Of a stretch of DNA of 40,282 nucleotides, positions 302 to 40,282 are shown in pieces. The stretch lies in sequence record MT465573. The stretch is one strand, 5' to 3'. Within the stretch, counting starts at the first letter, position 1, and every line of letters starts with the position of its first letter. A model generated the notes under the pieces. The model saw nothing but the letters and a program-made list of their open reading frames with translations, was not told the origin of the DNA and did not search any database. This stretch comes from Escherichia phage P1723. The position numbers were made by a program, and so were the translations under genes.

Positions 302-325
302 TATTAACCCACACTATAAGGAGCC
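302..325 (+). promoter_or_regulatory. Phage RNAP promoter variant (phiOL-like), ATTAACCCACACTATAAGGAG with A at +1
   Basis: Matches the 13-copy phage promoter consensus except TATAAGG instead of TATAGGG; T7 phiOL has the same A-for-G variant at the left end. Confidence 0.5.
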
Positions 326-374
326 AACCTATAAGCCCATACTTAAAGTATTTCATAAAGTTTATCTTTAAGTG

Positions 375-409
375 TTGACATCCTCATCGGTCTATGGCCT
401 AATAGCAAC
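375..409 (+). promoter_or_regulatory. Candidate host sigma70 promoter (TTGACA -35, weak -10)
   Basis: Perfect TTGACA at 375-380; -10 region (CCTAAT/CTAATA) is poor. Confidence 0.3.
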
Positions 410-529
410 CGTCAACACGACGACACGCTGCGATAGCGTCTCTAAGTGGTCTGATAGGTTGACGGGTTCGAGTCCACACGATAGAACGCCTAAGGAACTA
501 CGCAGAGCCACCTAACGAAACAAAATGTG

Positions 530-565
530 TTGACATGCAGAACGACCTGATGTAACTTAGATAGC
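530..565 (+). promoter_or_regulatory. Early host-RNAP promoter (A-type): TTGACA-N17-TAACTT
   Basis: TTGACA 530-535, 17-nt spacer, TAACTT 553-558; one of three near-identical copies. Confidence 0.6.
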
Positions 566-736
566 AAGCAGTAAGGGTCGCTACTGGCTCCCACAGTAGC
601 AGTCAGGAAGGGAACTAAATCCCAACAGCCGACGACTCGGCGGTTAGCATAGCGTACCATCTGAGGGTGGAAACAATATGAGATGCACGAGTCGCTTCCT
701 AAGGAGCTAATCTTACAGGGCAGGTAAACAAGCTGC

Positions 737-772
737 TTGACATACAGAACGAAACGCAGTAACTTAGATAGC
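737..772 (+). promoter_or_regulatory. Early host-RNAP promoter (A-type): TTGACA-N17-TAACTT
   Basis: TTGACA 737-742, 17-nt spacer, TAACTT 760-765; downstream TAACTTAGATAGCAAG identical to the copy at 553. Confidence 0.6.
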
Positions 773-898
773 AAGTAACACAGCAGTACAGCGAGACCGA
801 ACTGATAAACTACATGGTCTATGCGGTGCCTCAGCGCGAATATCTGAGGTGAACGATTAGCACGATACCTAAGGTGCTACGCTAAGTGAACAAATAGC

Positions 899-934
899 TT
901 GACAATGTGTACTTAGCGTAGTAACTTAGAGTCC
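899..934 (+). promoter_or_regulatory. Early host-RNAP promoter (A-type): TTGACA-N17-TAACTT
   Basis: TTGACA 899-904, 17-nt spacer, TAACTT 922-927. Confidence 0.6.
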
Positions 935-1082
935 AACAAGCAACGTGATGACCGACACTGAAAGGGTCTAGGTGATTCCCTCTGGATGAACCGAATGTTC
1001 TTTAACAATTTGGATATCAACACTCATGAGAACGATAGCGACAATAGCGATTAACTCATGGTCACTGATACTACCGCGAGAC

Positions 1083-1149: not shown

Positions 1150-1602
1150 ATGATTTACACGAACGAACCAGCTAACAAATTCTATGTACTGGTCTCAGCA
1201 GCTCGAGCTAACCTGTCAGACATCGTGAACATGGGTCGTCAGTTAGACCTTAAGGCGCTCTTACAGGCCGAGCCGGAATACTATGGTGTCCTTGAATGTA
1301 CGGGTCTCACTGGCTGTTATCGTGAAGAGGGGCAGGCTGAAGCGTCCACCGAGCGCACTTACCGTGTACTGTGTGACAACAAGGCGCAAGCTATCAACGT
1401 GGCACGTTTGGCCTGTAATGACTTTGAGCAAGACTGTGTGATGGTCTATAAGTCACAGACTCACACCGCTGGTCTACTGTTCTGCAAGGGTCTGGAGGGG
1501 TACAAGGCGACTCGACTGAATGGCTCCTTCCAGCAAGTGGATGCACCTGAGGGTGAGTGCTACACAATGGATGCTGAAGGTCGTATCTGGGAGGTAATCT
1601 AA
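1150..1602 (+). CDS. 0.3: S-adenosylmethionine lyase (T3-type SAMase, anti-restriction), gene 0.3
   Basis: Translation MIYTNEPANKFYVLVSA...CYREE...KAQAINVARLACNDFEQDCVMVYKSQTHTAGL closely resembles T3 gp0.3 SAMase; GGAGAA RBS before the ATG at 1150 (tool ORF starts at 1138). Confidence 0.88.
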   Translation: MIYTNEPANKFYVLVSAARANLSDIVNMGRQLDLKALLQAEPEYYGVLECTGLTGCYREEGQAEASTERTYRVLCDNKAQAINVARLACNDFEQDCVMVYKSQTHTAGLLFCKGLEGYKATRLNGSFQQVDAPEGECYTMDAEGRIWEVI

Positions 1603-2116: not shown

Positions 2117-2473
2117 ATGACTACCATCAATACTCGCATTATGTACACCGTAGGTTTCCGCATTGCAGCCGTACAGCGTTACCTTGCACTACCGGATGGC
2201 CCTCGCGGGAAGACAGGAACTACAGGTTTGGCTGTTGAGCTTGGCGTGTCCGTCCCGAGCCTCAATAAGTGGGTGACGGATTACCGCAACGGAGTGCTTA
2301 GTCTATCTAATGCCGTGAGCGTAGCCCGTAAGCCTGATAACGTGGTTAATGGTGACACCTATCATGTGTCTGGACGGGACTTCCGCACCAAAGAGGAGGC
2401 TATTCGCTACGCTGTAGAGCTTGCCGGTGGCATCACTGTAACCCGCACAATCCACGAATCTGTAACATTCTAA
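2117..2473 (+). CDS. Hypothetical early protein with helix-turn-helix motif (118 aa)
   Basis: ATG with GGAGA RBS; segment FRIAAVQRY...GTTGLAVELGVSVPSLNKWVTDY resembles the HTH of IS3-family OrfA-type DNA-binding domains. Confidence 0.55.
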   Translation: MTTINTRIMYTVGFRIAAVQRYLALPDGPRGKTGTTGLAVELGVSVPSLNKWVTDYRNGVLSLSNAVSVARKPDNVVNGDTYHVSGRDFRTKEEAIRYAVELAGGITVTRTIHESVTF

Positions 2474-6372: not shown

Positions 6373-6416
6373 CAGCGTCGGTTAATACCTAAGGCCTTGA
6401 ATCTTCAGGGTCTTAT

Positions 6417-6439
6417 CATTAACCCACACTATAGGGAAC
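6417..6439 (+). promoter_or_regulatory. Phage RNAP promoter (phi1.05-like), ATTAACCCACACTATAGGGAAC
   Basis: Exact match to the -16..+1 core consensus; +1 G at 6434. Confidence 0.7.
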
Positions 6440-33500: not shown

Positions 33501-34486
33501 ACTACCTGCTTAGCGCTGCACGTCAGGGTCTCATTGGGAACCTTATTGAACACGCTGCGACGGGTAAGTCCTCCAAGTGGCTCAATGAGAACTTCCTGAA
33601 GTCTGCCAGCATCACGCCTGAGCAGTCCAAGGGTATCATTCAGTTCCTCAAAGACCACGCCAAGGTGGACGCTAACGGTAAGTGGACCTTCCCAGACCAA
33701 CACGCGATGAGCCTTGACCCTCGGGCTATGGACTTGTGGCGGATGGCTGATAAGGTTGCAGATGAGACCATGCTCCGACCATCCAAGATTAATGCACAGA
33801 ACGTTAAACAGTTAGGCCCGATTGTTGGCGCTGCGTTGCAGTTCAAAACGTTCGTCATTAAGTCCCTCAATGGTAAGACACTACGTACTTACTATCAGGC
33901 CACTCGCGATGGTCGTGCGATGGACGCTGCATTGTCCACAGGTATCTCCGGGATGCTTGCTGGTTCGTTCTACGTGATGCAGTCCCACATGAAAGCTGCT
34001 GGTCTCCCTGAGAACCAACGTGAGGCTTATCTCTTCAAGGCCTTAACGCCTGAGATGGTTGCCTACGCTGCGGCCTCCCGAAGCTCTATCACTGGTGCGC
34101 CGTTAGGTGTTGCAGATATGCTTCTGGGGCCAATTGGACTGACTCCAAGCCAGTACATGCGTACCACTATCAGTCCTAAGGATGCACCACAGCGAGACCC
34201 TAACAAGGCTTCCTCTGGTCGTTCCGGTACGGCTGAGCTGATGGGTGCTATTGGTCAACAGTTCCCTGTGGCTAACTACGTTGGCTCTACGGTGTCTCTC
34301 GGTCAGAACCTCTGGAACCTCGGAGGTGCCAATGGCCCTCGCGACTCCACGGAGTTCACTACAGGTGTCTATCAGAATATGAAGGAAGTTCTCCCGAACG
34401 ACCCGATTACTCAGAGACTACTTCTGGGTGCTTTCGAAGAGCACATCTACACAACCGAGCGACCTAAGCGTTCAGAGCGCTGGTAA
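30524..34486 (+). CDS. 16: Internal virion protein D with N-terminal lytic transglycosylase domain, gene 16
   Basis: 1320 aa; N-terminus GVSYDLLR...ES.FN..AKS.TGP.G.MQ.T is the transglycosylase motif region of T7 gp16; later segments (FGNPKAI, ILTGRARR, MDLWR.ADKVADE.MLRP) align with T7 gp16. Confidence 0.95.
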   Translation: MAKYDKTIPNQYDGLIRQAADANGVSYDLLRHLTFNESSFNANAKSPTGPKGIMQMTAGTGRAMGLNVFKEDNPADDRYNPEKAIPAAAKLLAGFVKKSNGDELRAALMYNVGEGPTGMPQIEAYDKQDYGSIGDEGRLYIRKLVGSAKSLRSEAIEKFGDFAKGIFEVEAPASKVTRGAPGPETASVNMDTSNLKYDQLNERTAANTWAVQNDQPEENYKPQGADKGLFYKTGDVAKVEVQNSALATMADAALGDNGYDVWSATITPSKWNSYTFTPDDIQKIRESGLRAEYAQSVLGSNAETLDEMIKLAKERQDRQDSVADAGMGAHLVGALAGAAVDPVSYIPIAGAASKGISLGRRMVTVGTQAGALNVASEVLRVGVGGGHADYMMAAGGGLLFGAGLTGVLHRANPREAESVLAATARAESRDAAMRGLPDNSAVSTEGLDFKTSPNGSQYATLDSGEVVLPDGQVLSTSNPLNPNSASQFASVDPEVTKGSMGVRMGSMTDISLHLSRSADDEVRGVAYDLLRSTTGYVKGGSGKSGTVASDVAERLHYTDTSDLTAIEQFTRDAIKDPEWTMGANRGDALARETVVRRAVEAQEDGIGVSKLTKGESKLRDEIFRFTTSKEDAMSNPAMFGNPKAIPVMNKTKLSGKYFPVAYVPEKVAAFRNVFGNSVEDAQGAMQRHFLADYASNPNTKSVVDEMVAAKNGLDSPAAVTPEMVEKWANDKAFGIVNGEFTTNLALDDIASASNSMNLGKNNFLESRHGFSMGFKSQLPDGQMFSLNDLRSFDANKLLRNYARRTNGDIAIHSTGQTTQDLLDKITAIRERAKSDPSGKLKQDANALEDTVKLLTGRARRDPNGAVDMAMGVLKDLSFVAKNAYMGLLNLTEIGGMIAKGNVRALFHGIPVVRDMMRSTKAVSGTDLQKLEYGLMGREVDNMIRPQRADLIQSLRDNSGMGSFGANALGSLKFGTQEIAAAWPMSKLLQGTTNYLLSAARQGLIGNLIEHAATGKSSKWLNENFLKSASITPEQSKGIIQFLKDHAKVDANGKWTFPDQHAMSLDPRAMDLWRMADKVADETMLRPSKINAQNVKQLGPIVGAALQFKTFVIKSLNGKTLRTYYQATRDGRAMDAALSTGISGMLAGSFYVMQSHMKAAGLPENQREAYLFKALTPEMVAYAAASRSSITGAPLGVADMLLGPIGLTPSQYMRTTISPKDAPQRDPNKASSGRSGTAELMGAIGQQFPVANYVGSTVSLGQNLWNLGGANGPRDSTEFTTGVYQNMKEVLPNDPITQRLLLGAFEEHIYTTERPKRSERW

Positions 34487-34487
34487 T

Positions 34488-34510
34488 CATTAACCCACAC
34501 TATAGGGAGA
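34488..34510 (+). promoter_or_regulatory. Phage RNAP promoter (phi17-like), copy 1
   Basis: TCATTAACCCACACTATAGGGAGAGG, +1 at 34505. Confidence 0.8.
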
Positions 34511-34550
34511 GGCAATCACGTCCTCCCTCTAGTTTTCATAAGGAGGCCAC

Positions 34551-34793
34551 ATGGCAAACGTCATTAAGACAGTTTATACGTACCCATTAGATGGCACCAC
34601 GACTGACTTTGCGATTCCCTTTGAGTACCTGTCACGTAAGTTCGTGGTGGTAACGCTCATTGGTCAAGACCGTAAAGAGCTGGTTGTTGTGACCGATTAT
34701 CGCTTCGCTACCCGCAACCTTATCTCTACGACTAAGGCATGGGGACCAGCCGATAACTATCAACAGATTGAGCTACACAACCGAGCGACCTAA
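34551..34793 (+). CDS. Truncated duplicate of the tail fiber N-terminus (gp17 residues 1-74 plus 6 aa), created by the tandem duplication
   Basis: Identical to the first 74 codons of gene 17, then runs through the duplication junction into LHNRAT and a TAA; has its own promoter and AAGGAGG RBS. Confidence 0.6.
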   Translation: MANVIKTVYTYPLDGTTTDFAIPFEYLSRKFVVVTLIGQDRKELVVVTDYRFATRNLISTTKAWGPADNYQQIELHNRAT

Positions 34794-34813
34794 GCGTTCA
34801 GAGCGCTGGTAAT

Positions 34814-34836
34814 CATTAACCCACACTATAGGGAGA
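34814..34836 (+). promoter_or_regulatory. Phage RNAP promoter (phi17-like), copy 2
   Basis: Identical to copy 1; +1 at 34831. Confidence 0.8.
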
Positions 34837-34876
34837 GGCAATCACGTCCTCCCTCTAGTTTTCATAAGGAGGCCAC

Positions 34877-36754
34877 ATGGCAAACGTCATTAAGACAGTT
34901 TATACGTACCCATTAGATGGCACCACGACTGACTTTGCGATTCCCTTTGAGTACCTGTCACGTAAGTTCGTGGTGGTAACGCTCATTGGTCAAGACCGTA
35001 AAGAGCTGGTTGTTGTGACCGATTATCGCTTCGCTACCCGCAACCTTATCTCTACGACTAAGGCATGGGGACCAGCCGATAACTATCAACAGATTGAGAT
35101 TCGTCGATACACTTCTGCAAGTGAACGTCTGGTTGACTTCAGTGATGGTTCCATCCTGCGAGCTACCGACCTTAACGTATCTCAGATTCAGACCCTGCAC
35201 GTTGCTGAAGAAGCGCGAGACCTGACCGCTGATACCATTGGCGTTAACAACGATGGCAACCTTGATGGTCGTGGTCGTCGTATCGTTAACGTGGCAGATG
35301 GTGTGGACGCTGGTGACGTTGTTACCGTAGGCCAGATGAACCGTTGGTCTGGTAGTGCTGCCGACAGCGCCAATAAAGCCAAGGTGTCCGAGACCAACGC
35401 CAAGACCTCTGAGACAAACTCAAAGGCTTCCGAGCTGTTAGCCCAGAAGTGGGCTGAGAACCCTAAAGGAACACCTGTGGTCTCCAGTCAGTATTCCGCT
35501 AAGCATTGGGCGTTGACCTCTGAGGATAGCGCTAATGCGTCTGCAACCTCTGCGGGTAACTCTCAGGCACAAGTAGCGAACGCTAAGACACAGGCTGACC
35601 GTGCTGGTGGTTACGCCAATGACGCTATGGGTTACCGCGATGCAGCCAACACGTCTGCTCAACAGGCCGCTGTATCTGAGGGCAACGCTGCGACATCTGC
35701 AAGTAACGCAAAGACTGAATCCGATAAGCTAATTCAGTTTAACACTCTGGTTGACCGGATTAACGGAGTGGCTGTACGTCAGGTTGGTGAGTTTGAGGTC
35801 CACAACTCTCGTACTTACGCTAAGCCGGGTACAGTGTATGGGGATGGTCAACTGCTGAACCGCAACCAGTTCCCTGCACTAGTAGCTGAGTTACTGGCAG
35901 GACACCTCCCGGTTGTCTCTGACTCCGAATGGCTGGCTGACCCCGGTAAACGTGGTTGCTATACCCTAGGTAACGGTACGACCACTTTCCGTGTACCAGA
36001 CCTCAACGGTGTCTATGCGGGTTCCATTAAGGCTCCTGTGTTCCGTGGTGACGCTGGGTTTACTGTAGGTGATGTTCAGAAGTCAGCTCTACCAAACATT
36101 GAGGGTCTGATTGCACTTGCCGATAATGAGCTGGCCTCCAGTGCCTCTGGTGCATTCTACAACGCTGGGCGCTCCAACAAAGGTGCAACTAACGATACCG
36201 GCGGTGCTCAGTTAGGTTTCGACGCGTCACTGTGGAACGAAATCTACAAGAAGGACACCAACGAAGCCCGAATGAACTCCGTGGTAATCGTATGGGTCAT
36301 CCGTACTCACGGGGTGGTGAACAATCCGGGTTCTGTAGATGCCGCTGTGTTGTCTTCTCGTGTCGAGCAGGTTTATACCGAACTGCTTACACGTATGGTT
36401 GCTAATGAGAACCTCCAGAAGTCTGGACAGAAGTTCCTTCGCCGAGTGTTTAGCGACCGCACGTCTCAGGGGCAACTTTCGACTGGAAGAACAGTGACTT
36501 GCTCTGAGGATATTCTCAACAAGATGCTAGTAATTGGCGCACACACCGATAGCCAAAACCCAAACTCTCAGATATATCGTTGTAGCCCGTTCCTCCAGCC
36601 GAACACTGCTGACCGAATGCACCTCACTCTATCTAACTGGTCGTACACCTTAGAGTTCCCTGCGGCGAATCAAGTTAAACTAGTAGCGGCTACAGGTTCT
36701 GGAGTACAGGCAATCAACTATATTGACGTAGTGTGCGACTACCCACAAACGTAA
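34877..36754 (+). CDS. 17: Tail fiber protein, gene 17 (T7-like N-terminal domain, divergent distal region)
   Basis: 625 aa; residues 1-150 (MANVIKTV..FEYL.RKFVVVTLIG.DRK...DYRFATR...KAWGPAD, GSILRA.DLNV.QIQT.HVAEEARDLT.DTIGVNNDG.LD.RGRRIVN) match T7 gp17; distal part differs and contains a tail-collar-like motif. Confidence 0.95.
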   Translation: MANVIKTVYTYPLDGTTTDFAIPFEYLSRKFVVVTLIGQDRKELVVVTDYRFATRNLISTTKAWGPADNYQQIEIRRYTSASERLVDFSDGSILRATDLNVSQIQTLHVAEEARDLTADTIGVNNDGNLDGRGRRIVNVADGVDAGDVVTVGQMNRWSGSAADSANKAKVSETNAKTSETNSKASELLAQKWAENPKGTPVVSSQYSAKHWALTSEDSANASATSAGNSQAQVANAKTQADRAGGYANDAMGYRDAANTSAQQAAVSEGNAATSASNAKTESDKLIQFNTLVDRINGVAVRQVGEFEVHNSRTYAKPGTVYGDGQLLNRNQFPALVAELLAGHLPVVSDSEWLADPGKRGCYTLGNGTTTFRVPDLNGVYAGSIKAPVFRGDAGFTVGDVQKSALPNIEGLIALADNELASSASGAFYNAGRSNKGATNDTGGAQLGFDASLWNEIYKKDTNEARMNSVVIVWVIRTHGVVNNPGSVDAAVLSSRVEQVYTELLTRMVANENLQKSGQKFLRRVFSDRTSQGQLSTGRTVTCSEDILNKMLVIGAHTDSQNPNSQIYRCSPFLQPNTADRMHLTLSNWSYTLEFPAANQVKLVAATGSGVQAINYIDVVCDYPQT

Positions 36755-40092: not shown

Positions 40093-40282
40093 TCTCAAAG
40101 ATACAACTCCCAAAGTTCCCCCATAGCCCTCTTTAAGTTCACCTTCGGTGGCCCTTCCCCTTTGGTTACTCTTTAAGTGACACCTTTGGTGGTTCGTTTG
40201 GTTCTCCTGAGGCGGTGTTGAGACCCTTTGGTGAGACATTAGGGAGACCATTTGGTGACATTTGGTTATGCCTCAGTCCCTA
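40093..40282. repeat. Putative terminal-repeat / genome-end region with CCTTTGGT-type short repeats
   Basis: TCTCAAAGATACAACTCCCAAAGTTCCCCCATAGCCCTCTTTAAG resembles the T3/T7 left-end sequence; CCTTTGGT/CCCTTTAAG repeats continue across the window end into positions 1-80. Confidence 0.35.

What the first reader, a model, noticed from the sequence alone, without database searches (positions are those of the whole stretch)
520..935. Three near-identical strong sigma70-type early promoters, each with an upstream CCTAAGG element
TTGACA-N17-TAACTTAGA recurs at 530, 737 and 899, matching the A1/A2/A3 arrangement of T7-like phages. Each copy has CCTAAGG(A/T)(A/G)CTA about 30-40 nt upstream of the -35 (near 490, 700 and 868), suggesting a duplicated promoter module or a shared upstream regulatory element. 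A possible fourth, weaker promoter has its -35 at 375. A minus-strand ORF (490-774) overlaps this region and is probably spurious.
Basis: seen in the sequence. Interest (0 to 1): 0.4.

Follow-up and report, generated by a model that had tools for sequence, protein, structure and literature searches.

The report
Tandem early promoters of T7-like phage
These are the ordinary host-RNA-polymerase start signals that a T7-like coliphage uses to switch on its first genes; the short CCTAAGG word upstream travels with each promoter copy, but nothing shows it to be a separate control element.

Summary
TTGACA-N17-TAACTTAGA lies at 530, 737 and 899, and CCTAAGGnnCTA at 489, 698 and 868; about zero are expected by chance. 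The window is a Foetvirus genome (T7-like, 97% identical to coliphage SRT7).

The sites lie between the phage phiOL promoter and gene 0.3. On a rough sigma70 matrix they score like T7 A1-A3. The 899 copy aligns with mapped T7 A3, and the weak 375 site aligns with T7 A1. Across seven promoter alleles of this phage group the two hexamers never vary and the spacer is always 17 nt, although 15 of its 17 positions vary. That is the signature of a working sigma70 promoter. The same -10/start block (TAACTTAGATAGCAAG) is the predicted host promoter of Klebsiella Drulisvirus and other Autographiviridae.

Copy number is polymorphic: 3 here, 2 or 1 in relatives, apparently through recombination between copies.

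CCTAAGG is confined to this lineage and resembles an inverted copy of the -10 block. It reads CTTAAGG in three relatives. Only at copy 3 does it give a stable hairpin (-27.6 kcal/mol, z -5.3). It is best read as part of the duplicated module; a regulatory role is unproven. Verdict: ordinary, a new member of a known kind.

The parts
303..323 (+). Phage-RNA-polymerase promoter phiOL (ATTAACCCACACTATAAGGAG), marking the start of the left-end control region.
   Evidence: It is one of 13 copies of ATTAACCCACACTATAGGGAG-type promoters in the genome. T7 phiOL has the same TATAAGGAG variant at the same relative place.
375..403 (+). Weak or degenerate host promoter: TTGACA-N17-CCTAAT. It is the orthologue of T7 A1.
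   Evidence: It aligns with T7 A1 and the Kayfunavirus A1-type promoter at 68% mean column identity. The -10 lacks the -11 A: CCTAAT here, CTTAAT in all relatives.
489..500 (+). CCTAAGGAACTA, upstream motif of module 1 (-77 to -66 relative to the predicted start at A566).
   Evidence: It is invariant in all six relatives.
517..529 (+). A-rich block GAAACAAAATGTG abutting the -35, resembling a proximal UP subsite. Equivalents lie at 724-736 and 886-898.
   Evidence: AACAA is invariant in the three-way alignment. The same GTGAAACAAAAC block precedes T7 A3 and Kayfunavirus A3. The UP-subsite reading rests on my own knowledge of the consensus.
530..566 (+). Promoter module 1: -35 at 530-535, 17-nt spacer, -10 TAACTT at 553-558, predicted start at A566.
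   Evidence: The start is inferred from the 7-nt gap between -10 and +1 in annotated T7 A2/A3.
698..709 (+). CCTAAGGAGCTA, upstream motif of module 2 (-75 to -64).
   Evidence: It lies in the 562-767 segment that none of the six relatives carries.
737..773 (+). Promoter module 2: -35 at 737-742, -10 at 760-765, predicted start at A773.
868..879 (+). CCTAAGGTGCTA, upstream motif of module 3 (-67 to -56). It is the 5' arm of the inverted repeat.
   Evidence: It reads CTTAAGG in SRT7, L157 and L159/L160.
869..929 (+). Imperfect inverted repeat with 24-nt arms (83% complementary) that encloses the -35 of module 3. Its 3' arm is the spacer plus the -10.
   Evidence: repeat I1. As RNA it folds at -27.6 kcal/mol, z -5.3; SRT7 gives -30.0, z -5.1; L161 gives -27.6. 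It is absent in L156.
899..935 (+). Promoter module 3: -35 at 899-904, -10 at 922-927, predicted start at A935. It is the orthologue of T7 A3.
   Evidence: Alignment with T7 A3 and four Kayfunavirus/Teseptimavirus A3-type promoters gives 78% mean column identity through the downstream leader. It sits about 250 nt upstream of gene 0.3, as in those phages.
996..1008 (+). boxA-like TGTTCTTTAACAA in the common leader.
   Evidence: TCTTTAACAAT is invariant in the alignment with T7 and Kayfunavirus. The identification as boxA rests on my own knowledge of the rrn boxA consensus.
1150..1602 (+). First early gene (0.3-type S-adenosylmethionine lyase/hydrolase) served by the promoter array.
   Evidence: phrog_2226 at E 4e-46 and PF23780. 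The SRT7 homologue is annotated.
490..774 (-). 94-codon minus-strand ORF, judged spurious.
   Evidence: It has no PHROG match. It lies opposite to all genes and spans two promoters. All six relatives lack most of it because the 562-767 segment is missing.

Best explanation
The region is the class I (early) control region of a T7-like podovirus of E. coli (genus Foetvirus). It carries a rightward tandem array of host sigma70-RNA-polymerase promoters placed just inside the genetic left end.

Inferred mechanism, by analogy with T7: after the leading end of the DNA enters the cell, E. coli holoenzyme binds TTGACA / 17 nt / TAACTT and starts about 7 nt downstream, at A566, A773 and A935. It then transcribes through a common leader (boxA-like element, RNase III-type region) into gene 0.3, the kinase gene and the phage RNA polymerase gene.

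The array has four members:
- a degenerate A1 orthologue at 375;
- the A3 orthologue at 899;
- two further paralogues of the same module at 530 and 737.

The module runs from about -77 to about +10 and contains four blocks: CCTAAGGnnCTA, an A-rich proximal UP-like block, the -35, and the -10/start block.

The modules are direct repeats, so recombination between them changes their number. The window has three; close relatives have two or one.

CCTAAGGnnCTA is not needed for sigma70 recognition. It resembles a lineage-specific inverted copy of the promoter's own -10 block (TAG-TAA-CTTAG) and was inherited with each duplication. Its only demonstrable consequence is at module 3, where it helps form a stable hairpin in any transcript reading through from the upstream promoters.

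Shown here: sequence, position, homology, conservation pattern and copy-number variation. Inferred: actual initiation, promoter strength, start sites, and any role of the motif.
For: Identity of the genome:
- 97.4% identical to Escherichia phage SRT7 (Studiervirinae; Foetvirus; host E. coli) over 25 kb.

Position:
- The sites lie downstream of phiOL (303-323) and upstream of the first gene at 1150, all rightward.

Matrix score:
- Each of the three sites scores 12.66 bits and ranks 2nd-4th of all positions on both strands.
- The same matrix gives T7 A1 10.9, A2 13.0 and A3 14.2.

Orthology:
- 899 aligns with T7 A3 and 375 with T7 A1. The T7 and T3 sites are annotated E. coli promoters.

Selection signature:
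- The relatives were found by protein identity, not by promoter pattern.
- Across seven distinct alleles, 0 of 12 hexamer positions vary and 15 of 17 spacer positions vary. Spacer length is always 17 (Fisher p 1.8e-6).

Same promoter type elsewhere:
- More than 100 Klebsiella Drulisvirus records carry the same GTAACTTAGATAGCAAGCAGTAAG block about 1 kb from the left end. It is annotated 'promoter' in SU552A, KpV74 and KP-Rio/2015.
- It is listed as a predicted sigma70 promoter in PMC4411677, Table 3.
- It also occurs in phiKDA1-like and LIMElight/Micant-like contigs.

Copy number:
- The window has 3. SRT7, L154, L157, L159/160 and L161/168 have 2, with different junctions. L156 has 1.

The motif as part of the module:
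- 10 of its 12 columns are invariant in the three-way paralogue alignment, against 5 of 17 in the spacer.
- The reverse complement of the motif matches the -10 block (repeats I1 and I9).
- The copy 3 hairpin has z -5.3.
Against: - No transcription data exist for this phage or for SRT7. Literature searches found none.
- The -10 TAACTT matches TATAAT at only 3 of 6 positions, so a plain consensus scan misses all three sites.
- Genome-wide, the number of sites at or above 12.66 bits (4) equals the shuffle expectation (3.8). The argument therefore rests on clustering, position and homology rather than on score alone.
- The matrix was written from memory and is approximate.
- The direction of copy-number change is unresolved. 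The window is the only one of seven genomes with three modules, and its 562-767 segment is unique.
- The strong conservation of the motif among diverged paralogues is more than simple hitch-hiking predicts, so some function cannot be excluded.
Confidence: 0.85

Rival explanations
1. The CCTAAG/CTTAG inverted repeat is a functional RNA element. In transcripts started at upstream promoters it folds into a hairpin that encloses the next promoter. The hairpin would act as an RNase III-type processing site, or as a structural insulator or pause between tandem promoters.
For: - In all three modules the minimum-energy fold pairs CUAAG of the motif with CUUAG of the -10 block.
- At module 3 the hairpin is -27.6 kcal/mol, z -5.3: 5 bp, a 2x2 internal loop, then 13+3 bp. 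This is broadly the same build (lower stem, internal loop, upper stem) as the probable R1.1-type hairpin at 6380-6424 (z -4.9).
- The two substitutions that distinguish SRT7, L157 and L159 (C869T, A930T) both fall in the lower stem and both remain paired. The fold is -30.0 kcal/mol, z -5.1.
- L161 keeps the hairpin despite a different upstream flank.
Against: - Modules 1 and 2 fold no better than shuffled sequence (z -0.2 and -1.0).
- Their 3' partners changed (ATG and CAG instead of TAG) without compensation in the motif.
- L156 has lost the module 3 hairpin altogether.
- The two linked substitutions may be a single evolutionary event.
- The homologous promoters of T7, Pisces and SU552A show no such hairpin (z +0.1 to +1.1).
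- Processing upstream of A3 has no obvious use, because an R0.3-type site would lie downstream of all the promoters, as in T3; the fold of 1050-1135 here is not significant (z -1.6).
- There is no Rfam match.
Confidence: 0.15
2. CCTAAGGnnCTA is a DNA site bound by a protein that modulates the early promoters. Candidates are a host factor, the RNA polymerase alpha C-terminal domains on wrapped upstream DNA, or a phage early protein such as the 118-residue HTH-like product of 2117-2473.
For: - The motif is as well kept among the three diverged paralogues as the hexamers are (10 of 12 invariant columns).
- CCTAAGG is a 7-bp palindrome of the form CCTNAGG.
- Its centre lies near -70, -69 and -61, so copies 1 and 3 differ by one helical turn (computed).
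- An accessory early gene shows weak HTH similarity (HTH_Tnp_1 at E 0.033, below the Pfam cut-off).
Against: - Spacing to the -35 is not fixed (41, 39, 31 nt).
- The motif lies upstream of the classical UP window and is not A/T-rich.
- It is absent from orthologous promoters in T7, T3, Teetrevirus, Berlinvirus, Kayfunavirus, Drulisvirus and others.
- Three relatives carry CTTAAGG at copy 3, which breaks the palindrome.
- L159 and L160 lack the HTH-like gene but keep the motif.
- By eye it does not match the CRP, Fis, IHF or marbox consensus sequences (my own knowledge).
Confidence: 0.1
3. The repeats are not promoters. They would instead be iterons or other end-proximal DNA signals for replication, packaging or genome entry.
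For: They sit in the non-coding left end near phiOL, where T7 has a secondary origin and short end repeats (my own knowledge). T7, T3 and Teetrevirus carry many CCTAAAG heptamers in and next to the terminal repeat.
Against: - The conservation pattern is that of a sigma70 promoter: hexamers fixed, spacer length fixed, spacer sequence free.
- Two members are orthologous to mapped T7 promoters.
- The CCTAAAG heptamers of T3 and T7 lie in the terminal-repeat region, not upstream of A1-A3.
- Relatives tolerate one to three copies.
Confidence: 0.03
4. The motif marks short leader peptides: CCT-AAG-GAA/GAG/GTG-CTA reads P-K-E/V-L and is followed by a TAA stop in all three copies.
For: The frame is open through each motif and ends 1-6 codons later (read). 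TAAGGAG is also the phage's usual Shine-Dalgarno word.
Against: - Copy 3 has no start codon after the upstream stop.
- Copy 1 has only a poorly placed TTG.
- The copy 1 frame carries an in-frame TGA in L156, L157 and L159.
- SRT7 changes P to L at copy 3.
- No start codon lies 5-9 nt after any of the Shine-Dalgarno-like words.
Confidence: 0.01

Closest known systems
E. coli promoters A1, A2, A3 of phage T7 (NC_001604, starts at 498, 626, 750) and of T3 / phiSG-JL2
   Same: - Rightward tandem sigma70 promoters between phiOL and gene 0.3.
- Perfect or near-perfect TTGACA with a 17-18 nt spacer and a TAnnnT -10.
- An A-rich block (GTGAAACAAAAC) abutting the -35.
- A common leader with TCTTTAACAAT.
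- Site 899 aligns with A3 and site 375 with A1.
   Different: - Four sites instead of three.
- The A1 orthologue has lost the -11 A.
- The -10 is TAACTT, against GATACT, TAAGAT and TACGAT in T7.
- The A2 position holds two paralogues of one module.
- The CCTAAGGnnCTA block and the inverted repeat around the A3 orthologue have no counterpart in T7 or T3.
Predicted host promoters of Kp34likevirus / Drulisvirus (Eriksson et al. 2015, PMC4411677, Table 3: TTGACAAGTTCTGATTCACTGAGTAACTT)
   Same: - Identical -35, 17-nt spacer and -10.
- The same discriminator and start block, TAACTTAGATAGCAAGCAGTAAG.
- Location about 1 kb from the left end, in a tandem of two or three promoters.
   Different: - A different subfamily (Slopekvirinae), host (Klebsiella) and spacer sequence.
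- No CCTAAGG; AGTAAG repeats lie upstream instead.
- These promoters are also only predicted, not mapped.
RNase III processing hairpins of T7-group early RNA (R0.3, R1.1)
   Same: The 869-929 hairpin has a lower stem, a small internal loop and an upper stem of about 16 bp, with a strongly negative z-score. This resembles the T3 R0.3 stem-loop (z -3.4) and the R1.1-type hairpin at 6380-6424.
   Different: It lies upstream of the last promoter rather than between genes. It has a 13-nt loop that contains a -35 hexamer. It is missing in one relative. Cleavage is untested.
UP element of strong sigma70 promoters
   Same: The AACAA-rich block at about -49 to -37 fits the A-rich proximal subsite (my own knowledge of the consensus).
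   Different: CCTAAGGnnCTA lies further upstream (-56 to -77), is not A/T-rich, and has variable spacing.

Membership tests
T7-group early (class I) host-polymerase promoter array A1-A3 | Location at the genetic left end, after the terminal repeat and phiOL and before gene 0.3, reading rightward. | tested here: met
   phiOL is at 303-323, the promoters at 375-927 and gene 0.3 at 1150, all on the + strand. The terminal repeat sits at 40094-40282, so physical positions are about +189.
T7-group early (class I) host-polymerase promoter array A1-A3 | Sigma70 -35 and -10 hexamers with a 17 +/- 1 nt spacer. | tested here: met
   TTGACA-N17-TAACTT occurs three times. Each scores 12.66 bits, against 10.9-14.2 for T7 A1-A3 on the same approximate matrix. 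The 375 site meets the -35 and spacer criteria but not the -10 (CCTAAT).
T7-group early (class I) host-polymerase promoter array A1-A3 | Sequence homology to the experimentally mapped T7/T3 promoters. | tested here: met
   Site 899 against A3 gives 78% mean column identity over about 140 nt. Site 375 against A1 gives 68%. Sites 530 and 737 are paralogues of the 899 module; a one-to-one match to A2 is not shown.
T7-group early (class I) host-polymerase promoter array A1-A3 | Evolutionary signature of promoter function: hexamers and spacer length constrained, spacer sequence free. | tested here: met
   0 of 12 hexamer columns vary against 15 of 17 spacer columns, and spacer length is always 17, across seven alleles (p 1.8e-6).
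T7-group early (class I) host-polymerase promoter array A1-A3 | Initiation by E. coli sigma70 holoenzyme in vitro and early in infection. | not testable with these tools
   No transcript data were found for this phage or for SRT7.
UP element (alpha-CTD site), as a reading of CCTAAGG | An A/T-rich sequence between about -40 and -60. | tested here: not met
   The motif spans -77 to -66, -75 to -64 and -67 to -56, and CCTAAGG is 4/7 G+C. The separate AACAA block does fit the proximal subsite.
RNase III processing hairpin, as a reading of the CTAAG/CTTAG inverted repeat | A stable irregular hairpin of about two helical turns. | tested here: inconclusive
   Met at module 3 (z -5.3; kept in 5 of 6 relatives). 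Not met at modules 1 and 2 (z -0.2 and -1.0).
RNase III processing hairpin, as a reading of the CTAAG/CTTAG inverted repeat | Cleavage by RNase III. | not testable with these tools
   This needs a comparison of rnc+ and rnc- hosts.
tRNA or known structured RNA (considered because of GGTTCGAGTCC at 466-476) | A cloverleaf or a covariance-model match. | tested here: not met
   ARAGORN found 0 genes in the whole window. Rfam at E<=1 gave only a chance snoRNA hit at 18-50.

The most novel reading that the evidence does not exclude
The promoter module is a mobile, self-bracketed cassette. CCTAAGGnnCTA, an inverted copy of the -10 block, would have a function of its own. It could pair in read-through RNA so that each downstream promoter is wrapped in a hairpin, giving RNase III processing or insulation between tandem promoters. 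Alternatively it could act as a preferred recombination joint at which early-leader segments are swapped between co-infecting phages. In favour of the second idea, the divergent block of L161/L168 runs from just after CCTAAC (510-515) to just before CCTAAGG (868), and a 16-nt variant patch ends 4 nt before CCTAAGG at 489.
Probability: 0.12. Interest if true: 0.45.

Novelty: new member of a known kind. Interest (0 to 1): 0.2.

Why it matters
The practical value is for annotation. The SRT7 record marks none of these signals. The analysis gives this phage group its early promoters, predicted start sites and leader elements.

Two by-products are mildly useful to phage biologists.
1. The number of early promoters is a fast-evolving trait. 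It ranges from one to three within one species-level cluster, apparently through recombination between roughly 45-nt promoter cores. This offers a natural series for asking how much promoter redundancy matters for genome entry and early expression.
2. One promoter type, including its discriminator and first transcribed bases (TAACTTAGATAGCAAGCA), is shared by Autographiviridae of different subfamilies that infect Enterobacterales. That hints at constraint beyond the two hexamers.

Neither point changes the accepted picture of T7-like early transcription.

Tried and rejected
1. tRNA-like element suggested by GGTTCGAGTCC at 466-476: ARAGORN found nothing, and the segment is replaced by a variant patch in three relatives.
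2. Known RNA families: none in 1-1700. The inter-promoter leaders fold no better than shuffles (z -0.06, -1.8, +0.3, -0.3).
3. Decayed phage-polymerase promoters, because phiOL ends in TATAAGGAG: the 11 nt upstream of the motifs do not resemble ATTAACCCACAC.
4. Leader peptides (P-K-E/V-L): no usable starts, and the frame is broken in relatives.
5. Relation to the CCTAAAG end repeats of T7 and T3: those lie in or next to the terminal repeat, not upstream of A1-A3.
6. Homology of the motif to T7 GGATAAGTAGAC upstream of A2: the alignment places that T7 block opposite window 451-465, not opposite CCTAAGG.
7. Genome-wide CCTAAGG excess (12 against 3.8 expected): explained by coding contexts.
8. 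A leftward promoter on the opposite strand of the motif, or overlapping promoters using TAAGGA/T as a -10: no acceptable -35 by inspection.
9. The combined motif-plus-promoter pattern in IMG/VR found only SRT7 itself.
10. The looser promoter pattern gave mostly chance hits plus the Drulisvirus-type family.
11. Literature searches for SRT7 or Foetvirus transcription, and for Drulisvirus start-site mapping, found nothing relevant.
12. My first inference that 'SRT7 simply lost one unit' was weakened once six relatives all proved to lack the 562-767 segment. The direction of change is now left open.
Full report
**What is there**

- TTGACA lies at 530, 737 and 899.
- Each is followed after exactly 17 nt by TAACTTAGA (553, 760, 922).
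- CCTAAGG(A/T)(A/G)CTA lies at 489, 698 and 868.
- The full promoter pattern has three exact matches in the 40,282-nt window, against none in 100 shuffles.
- The 12-nt upstream pattern has three matches against 0.06 expected.
- The motif begins 41, 39 and 31 nt before the -35.

A three-way alignment of the units shows four islands of identity: CCTAAGG..CTA, AACAA just upstream of the -35, TTGACA, and GTAACTTAGA. The spacers and the stretch between the motif and the A-rich block are poorly conserved; 5 of 17 spacer columns are invariant.

**What the genome is**

The window is a complete or nearly complete genome of a T7-like podovirus. It is 97.4% identical over 25 kb to Escherichia phage SRT7 (Autographiviridae, Studiervirinae, Foetvirus; host E. 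coli).

Thirteen phage-polymerase promoters of the type ATTAACCCACACTATAGGGAG are spread along the + strand. The first, at 303-323, is the phiOL equivalent.

The terminal repeat sits only at the right end of the window, at 40094-40282. Coordinate 1 falls in the CCCTATCTGTT junction signal. Distances from the physical left end are therefore about 189 nt larger than window coordinates.

The first gene is a 0.3-type SAM lyase at 1150-1602, followed by a gene 0.4 homologue, small ORFs, the 0.7-type kinase and the RNA polymerase.

**Are these promoters?**

Four lines of evidence agree.

1. Position and direction match the A1-A3 array of T7 and T3, whose records annotate those sites as E. coli promoters.

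2. An approximate sigma70 matrix, written from memory of published frequencies, gives each site 12.66 bits.
   - That ranks them 2nd to 4th of all positions on both strands.
   - The same matrix gives 10.9, 13.0 and 14.2 bits to T7 A1, A2 and A3.
   - The genome-wide number of sites that good (4) is what shuffles give (3.8). The weight therefore lies in three of the four being clustered in 400 nt, on one strand, ahead of the first gene.
   - The plain consensus scan missed them because TAACTT matches TATAAT at only T1, A2 and T6.

3. Homology to mapped promoters.
   - The 899 site and about 110 nt downstream align with T7 A3 and the A3-type promoters of Kayfunavirus and a Teseptimavirus, at 78% mean column identity. 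The alignment includes CACTGAAAGG and the boxA-like TCTTTAACAAT.
   - The TTGACA at 375 aligns with T7 A1 and its Kayfunavirus equivalents at 68%.
   - So the 'possible fourth, weaker promoter' is the A1 orthologue. Its -10 is CCTAAT here and CTTAAT in all relatives, without the critical A at -11, so it is probably weak.

4. The conservation pattern.
   - Looking up contigs that encode exactly the window's small early proteins brought in relatives chosen without reference to the promoters.
   - Together with SRT7 these give seven distinct alleles of this promoter type.
   - None of the 12 hexamer positions varies, 15 of the 17 spacer positions vary, and the spacer is always 17 nt (Fisher p 1.8e-6).

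By analogy with the 7-nt gap between -10 and +1 at annotated T7 A2 and A3, the predicted starts are A566, A773 and A935.

**The same promoter type in other phages**

A metagenome scan for TTGACA-N17-TAACTTAGATAGCAA returned 16 contigs. They belong to Klebsiella Drulisvirus and to LIMElight/Micant-like phages.

A BLAST search with the 65-nt module 1 found the block GTAACTTAGATAGCAAGCAGTAAG in more than 100 Klebsiella phage records, typically about 1 kb from the left end. It is annotated 'promoter' in SU552A, KpV74 and KP-Rio/2015. Eriksson et al. list it as a predicted sigma70 promoter (PMC4411677, Table 3).

In a pattern scan that did not specify the bases after TAACTTAGA, 23 of 121 hits continued with TAGC(A/G)A. 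The conservation of the discriminator and first transcribed bases is therefore real and not only an effect of how I searched.

The spacers differ between lineages, but some are recognisably related: phiKDA1-type AGTACAGAAACACGCAG against module 2 TACAGAACGAAACGCAG. The promoters are thus homologous, not merely convergent. None of them has been mapped experimentally as far as I could find.

**Copy number**

The window is the only one of the seven genomes with three TAACTT modules.
- SRT7, L157 (ENA), L154 (Logan), L159/L160 and L161/L168 have two.
- L156 has one, made of module 1 upstream sequence, a hybrid spacer and module 3 downstream sequence.

The two-module genomes join module 1 upstream sequence to module 2 downstream sequence at different points. 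In SRT7 and L157 the joint lies inside the spacer. In L154 it lies after the -10.

This is what recombination between the roughly 45-nt direct repeats would produce. It suggests repeated loss from a three-module state.

However, the window's 562-767 segment is found in no relative. Gain from an unsampled donor therefore cannot be excluded. The leaders between promoters are mosaic; L161 has a quite different one.

**The CCTAAGG element**

It is specific to this phage lineage. The orthologous or homologous promoters of the following have no such word upstream:
- T7 and T3;
- two other Teetrevirus phages;
- a Berlinvirus;
- several Kayfunavirus phages;
- Drulisvirus;
- the LIMElight-like contigs.

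Its reverse complement, TAGnnCCTTAGG, resembles the -10 block of the A3-type promoter, TAGTAACTTAGA. The repeat finder reports 489-503 and 869-892 as inverted repeats of 916-929 and 906-929 (repeats I9 and I1). The TAGTA part of that block is ancient; it is the -10 TAGTAT of Kayfunavirus. I therefore read the motif as an inverted copy of the promoter's own -10 region. It would have arisen in this lineage and then been carried along when the module was duplicated.

It is kept better among the paralogues than neutral positions are: 10 of 12 columns against 5 of 17 in the spacer. A rough binomial estimate, allowing for choosing the best stretch, gives p about 0.01. This is my own arithmetic and is not a tool result.

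On the other hand, copy 3 reads CTTAAGG in SRT7, L157 and L159/L160.

**RNA folding**

All three modules pair CUAAG with CUUAG. Only module 3 is significantly stable.

| Module | Energy | z-score |
|---|---|---|
| 1 | -10.1 kcal/mol | -0.2 |
| 2 | -16.6 kcal/mol | -1.0 |
| 3 | -27.6 kcal/mol | -5.3 |

- The two substitutions of the SRT7-type haplotype (C869T, A930T) both lie in the lower stem and stay paired (-30.0 kcal/mol, z -5.1).
- They are only 61 nt apart and may represent one event.
- L161 keeps the hairpin next to a different flank.
- L156 has lost it.
- The equivalent regions of T7 A2/A3, Pisces and SU552A are unstructured.

A processing or insulating role for the module 3 hairpin is therefore possible but not required.

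**Other readings of the motif**

- It lies too far upstream and is too G+C-rich for a UP element.
- By eye it matches no familiar factor consensus (my own knowledge).
- It is not part of a conserved ORF, because the frame through copy 1 carries a TGA in three relatives.
- It is not a decayed phage promoter.

**The minus-strand ORF**

ORF 490-774 has no PHROG relative. It is antisense to the entire gene set. It spans sequence that all relatives lack. It is spurious.

**Verdict**

This is the expected early control region of a T7-like coliphage. The new information is descriptive:
- a four-member array with a crippled A1 orthologue and an expanded A2/A3-type module;
- copy-number polymorphism among close relatives;
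- a promoter type shared across subfamilies;
- a lineage-specific inverted repeat whose function, if any, is open.

Confidence that the three sites are functional host promoters is about 0.85-0.9. Confidence that CCTAAGG has an independent regulatory function is about 0.25 across all mechanisms together.

Noticed in passing
window 34447-35072: A perfect (100% identical) tandem duplication with a 326-nt period. It repeats the end of the internal virion protein gene, a phage promoter (identical contexts at 34483 and 34809) and the first about 80 codons of the tail fibre gene. This leaves an 80-codon ORF (34551-34793) ahead of the full gene (34877-36754). SRT7 has a single copy: 951 nt of query map to 625 nt of SRT7. 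It is either a very recent duplication or an assembly artefact.
   Followed up: partly
window 40094-40282 and 1-10: The roughly 189-nt terminal repeat (TCTCAAAGATAC...) is present once, at the right end. Window coordinate 1 falls inside CCCTATCTGTT, the T7-type concatemer-junction pause signal (my own knowledge). The record therefore starts just after the left repeat, and physical distances from the left end are about +189.
   Followed up: partly
window 284-256, minus strand: A leftward promoter-like site, TTGACT-N17-TACCTT, scoring 10.84 bits and ranking 9th in the genome. It lies between the terminal repeat and phiOL and may be the counterpart of the leftward A0 promoter annotated in T7 and T3.
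   Followed up: no
window 996-1008: TGTTCTTTAACAA differs by one base from the rrn boxA consensus (my own knowledge). TCTTTAACAAT is invariant across T7, Kayfunavirus and this phage in the leader downstream of the last early promoter.
   Followed up: partly
window 6380-6424: A stable hairpin (-20.5 kcal/mol, z -4.9) lies between the RNA polymerase gene and the next phage promoter, probably an R1.1-type RNase III site. Its stem contains the only other non-coding CCTAAGG of the genome, at 6388.
   Followed up: partly
window 2117-2473: A 118-residue early protein has only sub-threshold helix-turn-helix similarities (HTH_Tnp_1 at E 0.033, YdaS, HTH_23) and no PHROG family. The gene is present in the window, SRT7, L161, L162 and L168, but absent from L159, L160 and L163-L167, where the 65-residue gene is followed directly by the kinase. 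A DNA-binding early protein would be unusual for a T7-like phage.
   Followed up: partly
window 372-515: This + strand ORF matches phrog_30192 (unknown function, E 1.6e-4). Yet it overlaps the conserved A1-type promoter and leader, and it carries an in-frame TGA in three relatives. The PHROG family may be built from spurious ORF calls over this conserved non-coding region; CHRF_30111 annotates such a CDS there.
   Followed up: partly
L161/L168 versus window 516-867; L156/L157/L159 versus window 469-485: The mosaic blocks in the relatives end next to the motif. The divergent block of L161 runs from just after CCTAAC (510-515) to just before CCTAAGG (868). A 16-nt patch with 7 differences ends 4 nt before CCTAAGG at 489. 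This could be chance or could hint at preferred recombination joints.
   Followed up: no
L058 11103-11134 and 11543-11574 (IMG/VR contig 3300006923_000070): An unrelated phage contig carries two identical copies, 440 nt apart, of TTGACAGCACAGCCGCTTTGCACTAACTTAGA. Each is preceded by a long A/T-rich tract and followed closely by an ATG. It is an independent example of TTGACA-N17-TAACTT used as a repeated promoter-like unit.
   Followed up: no
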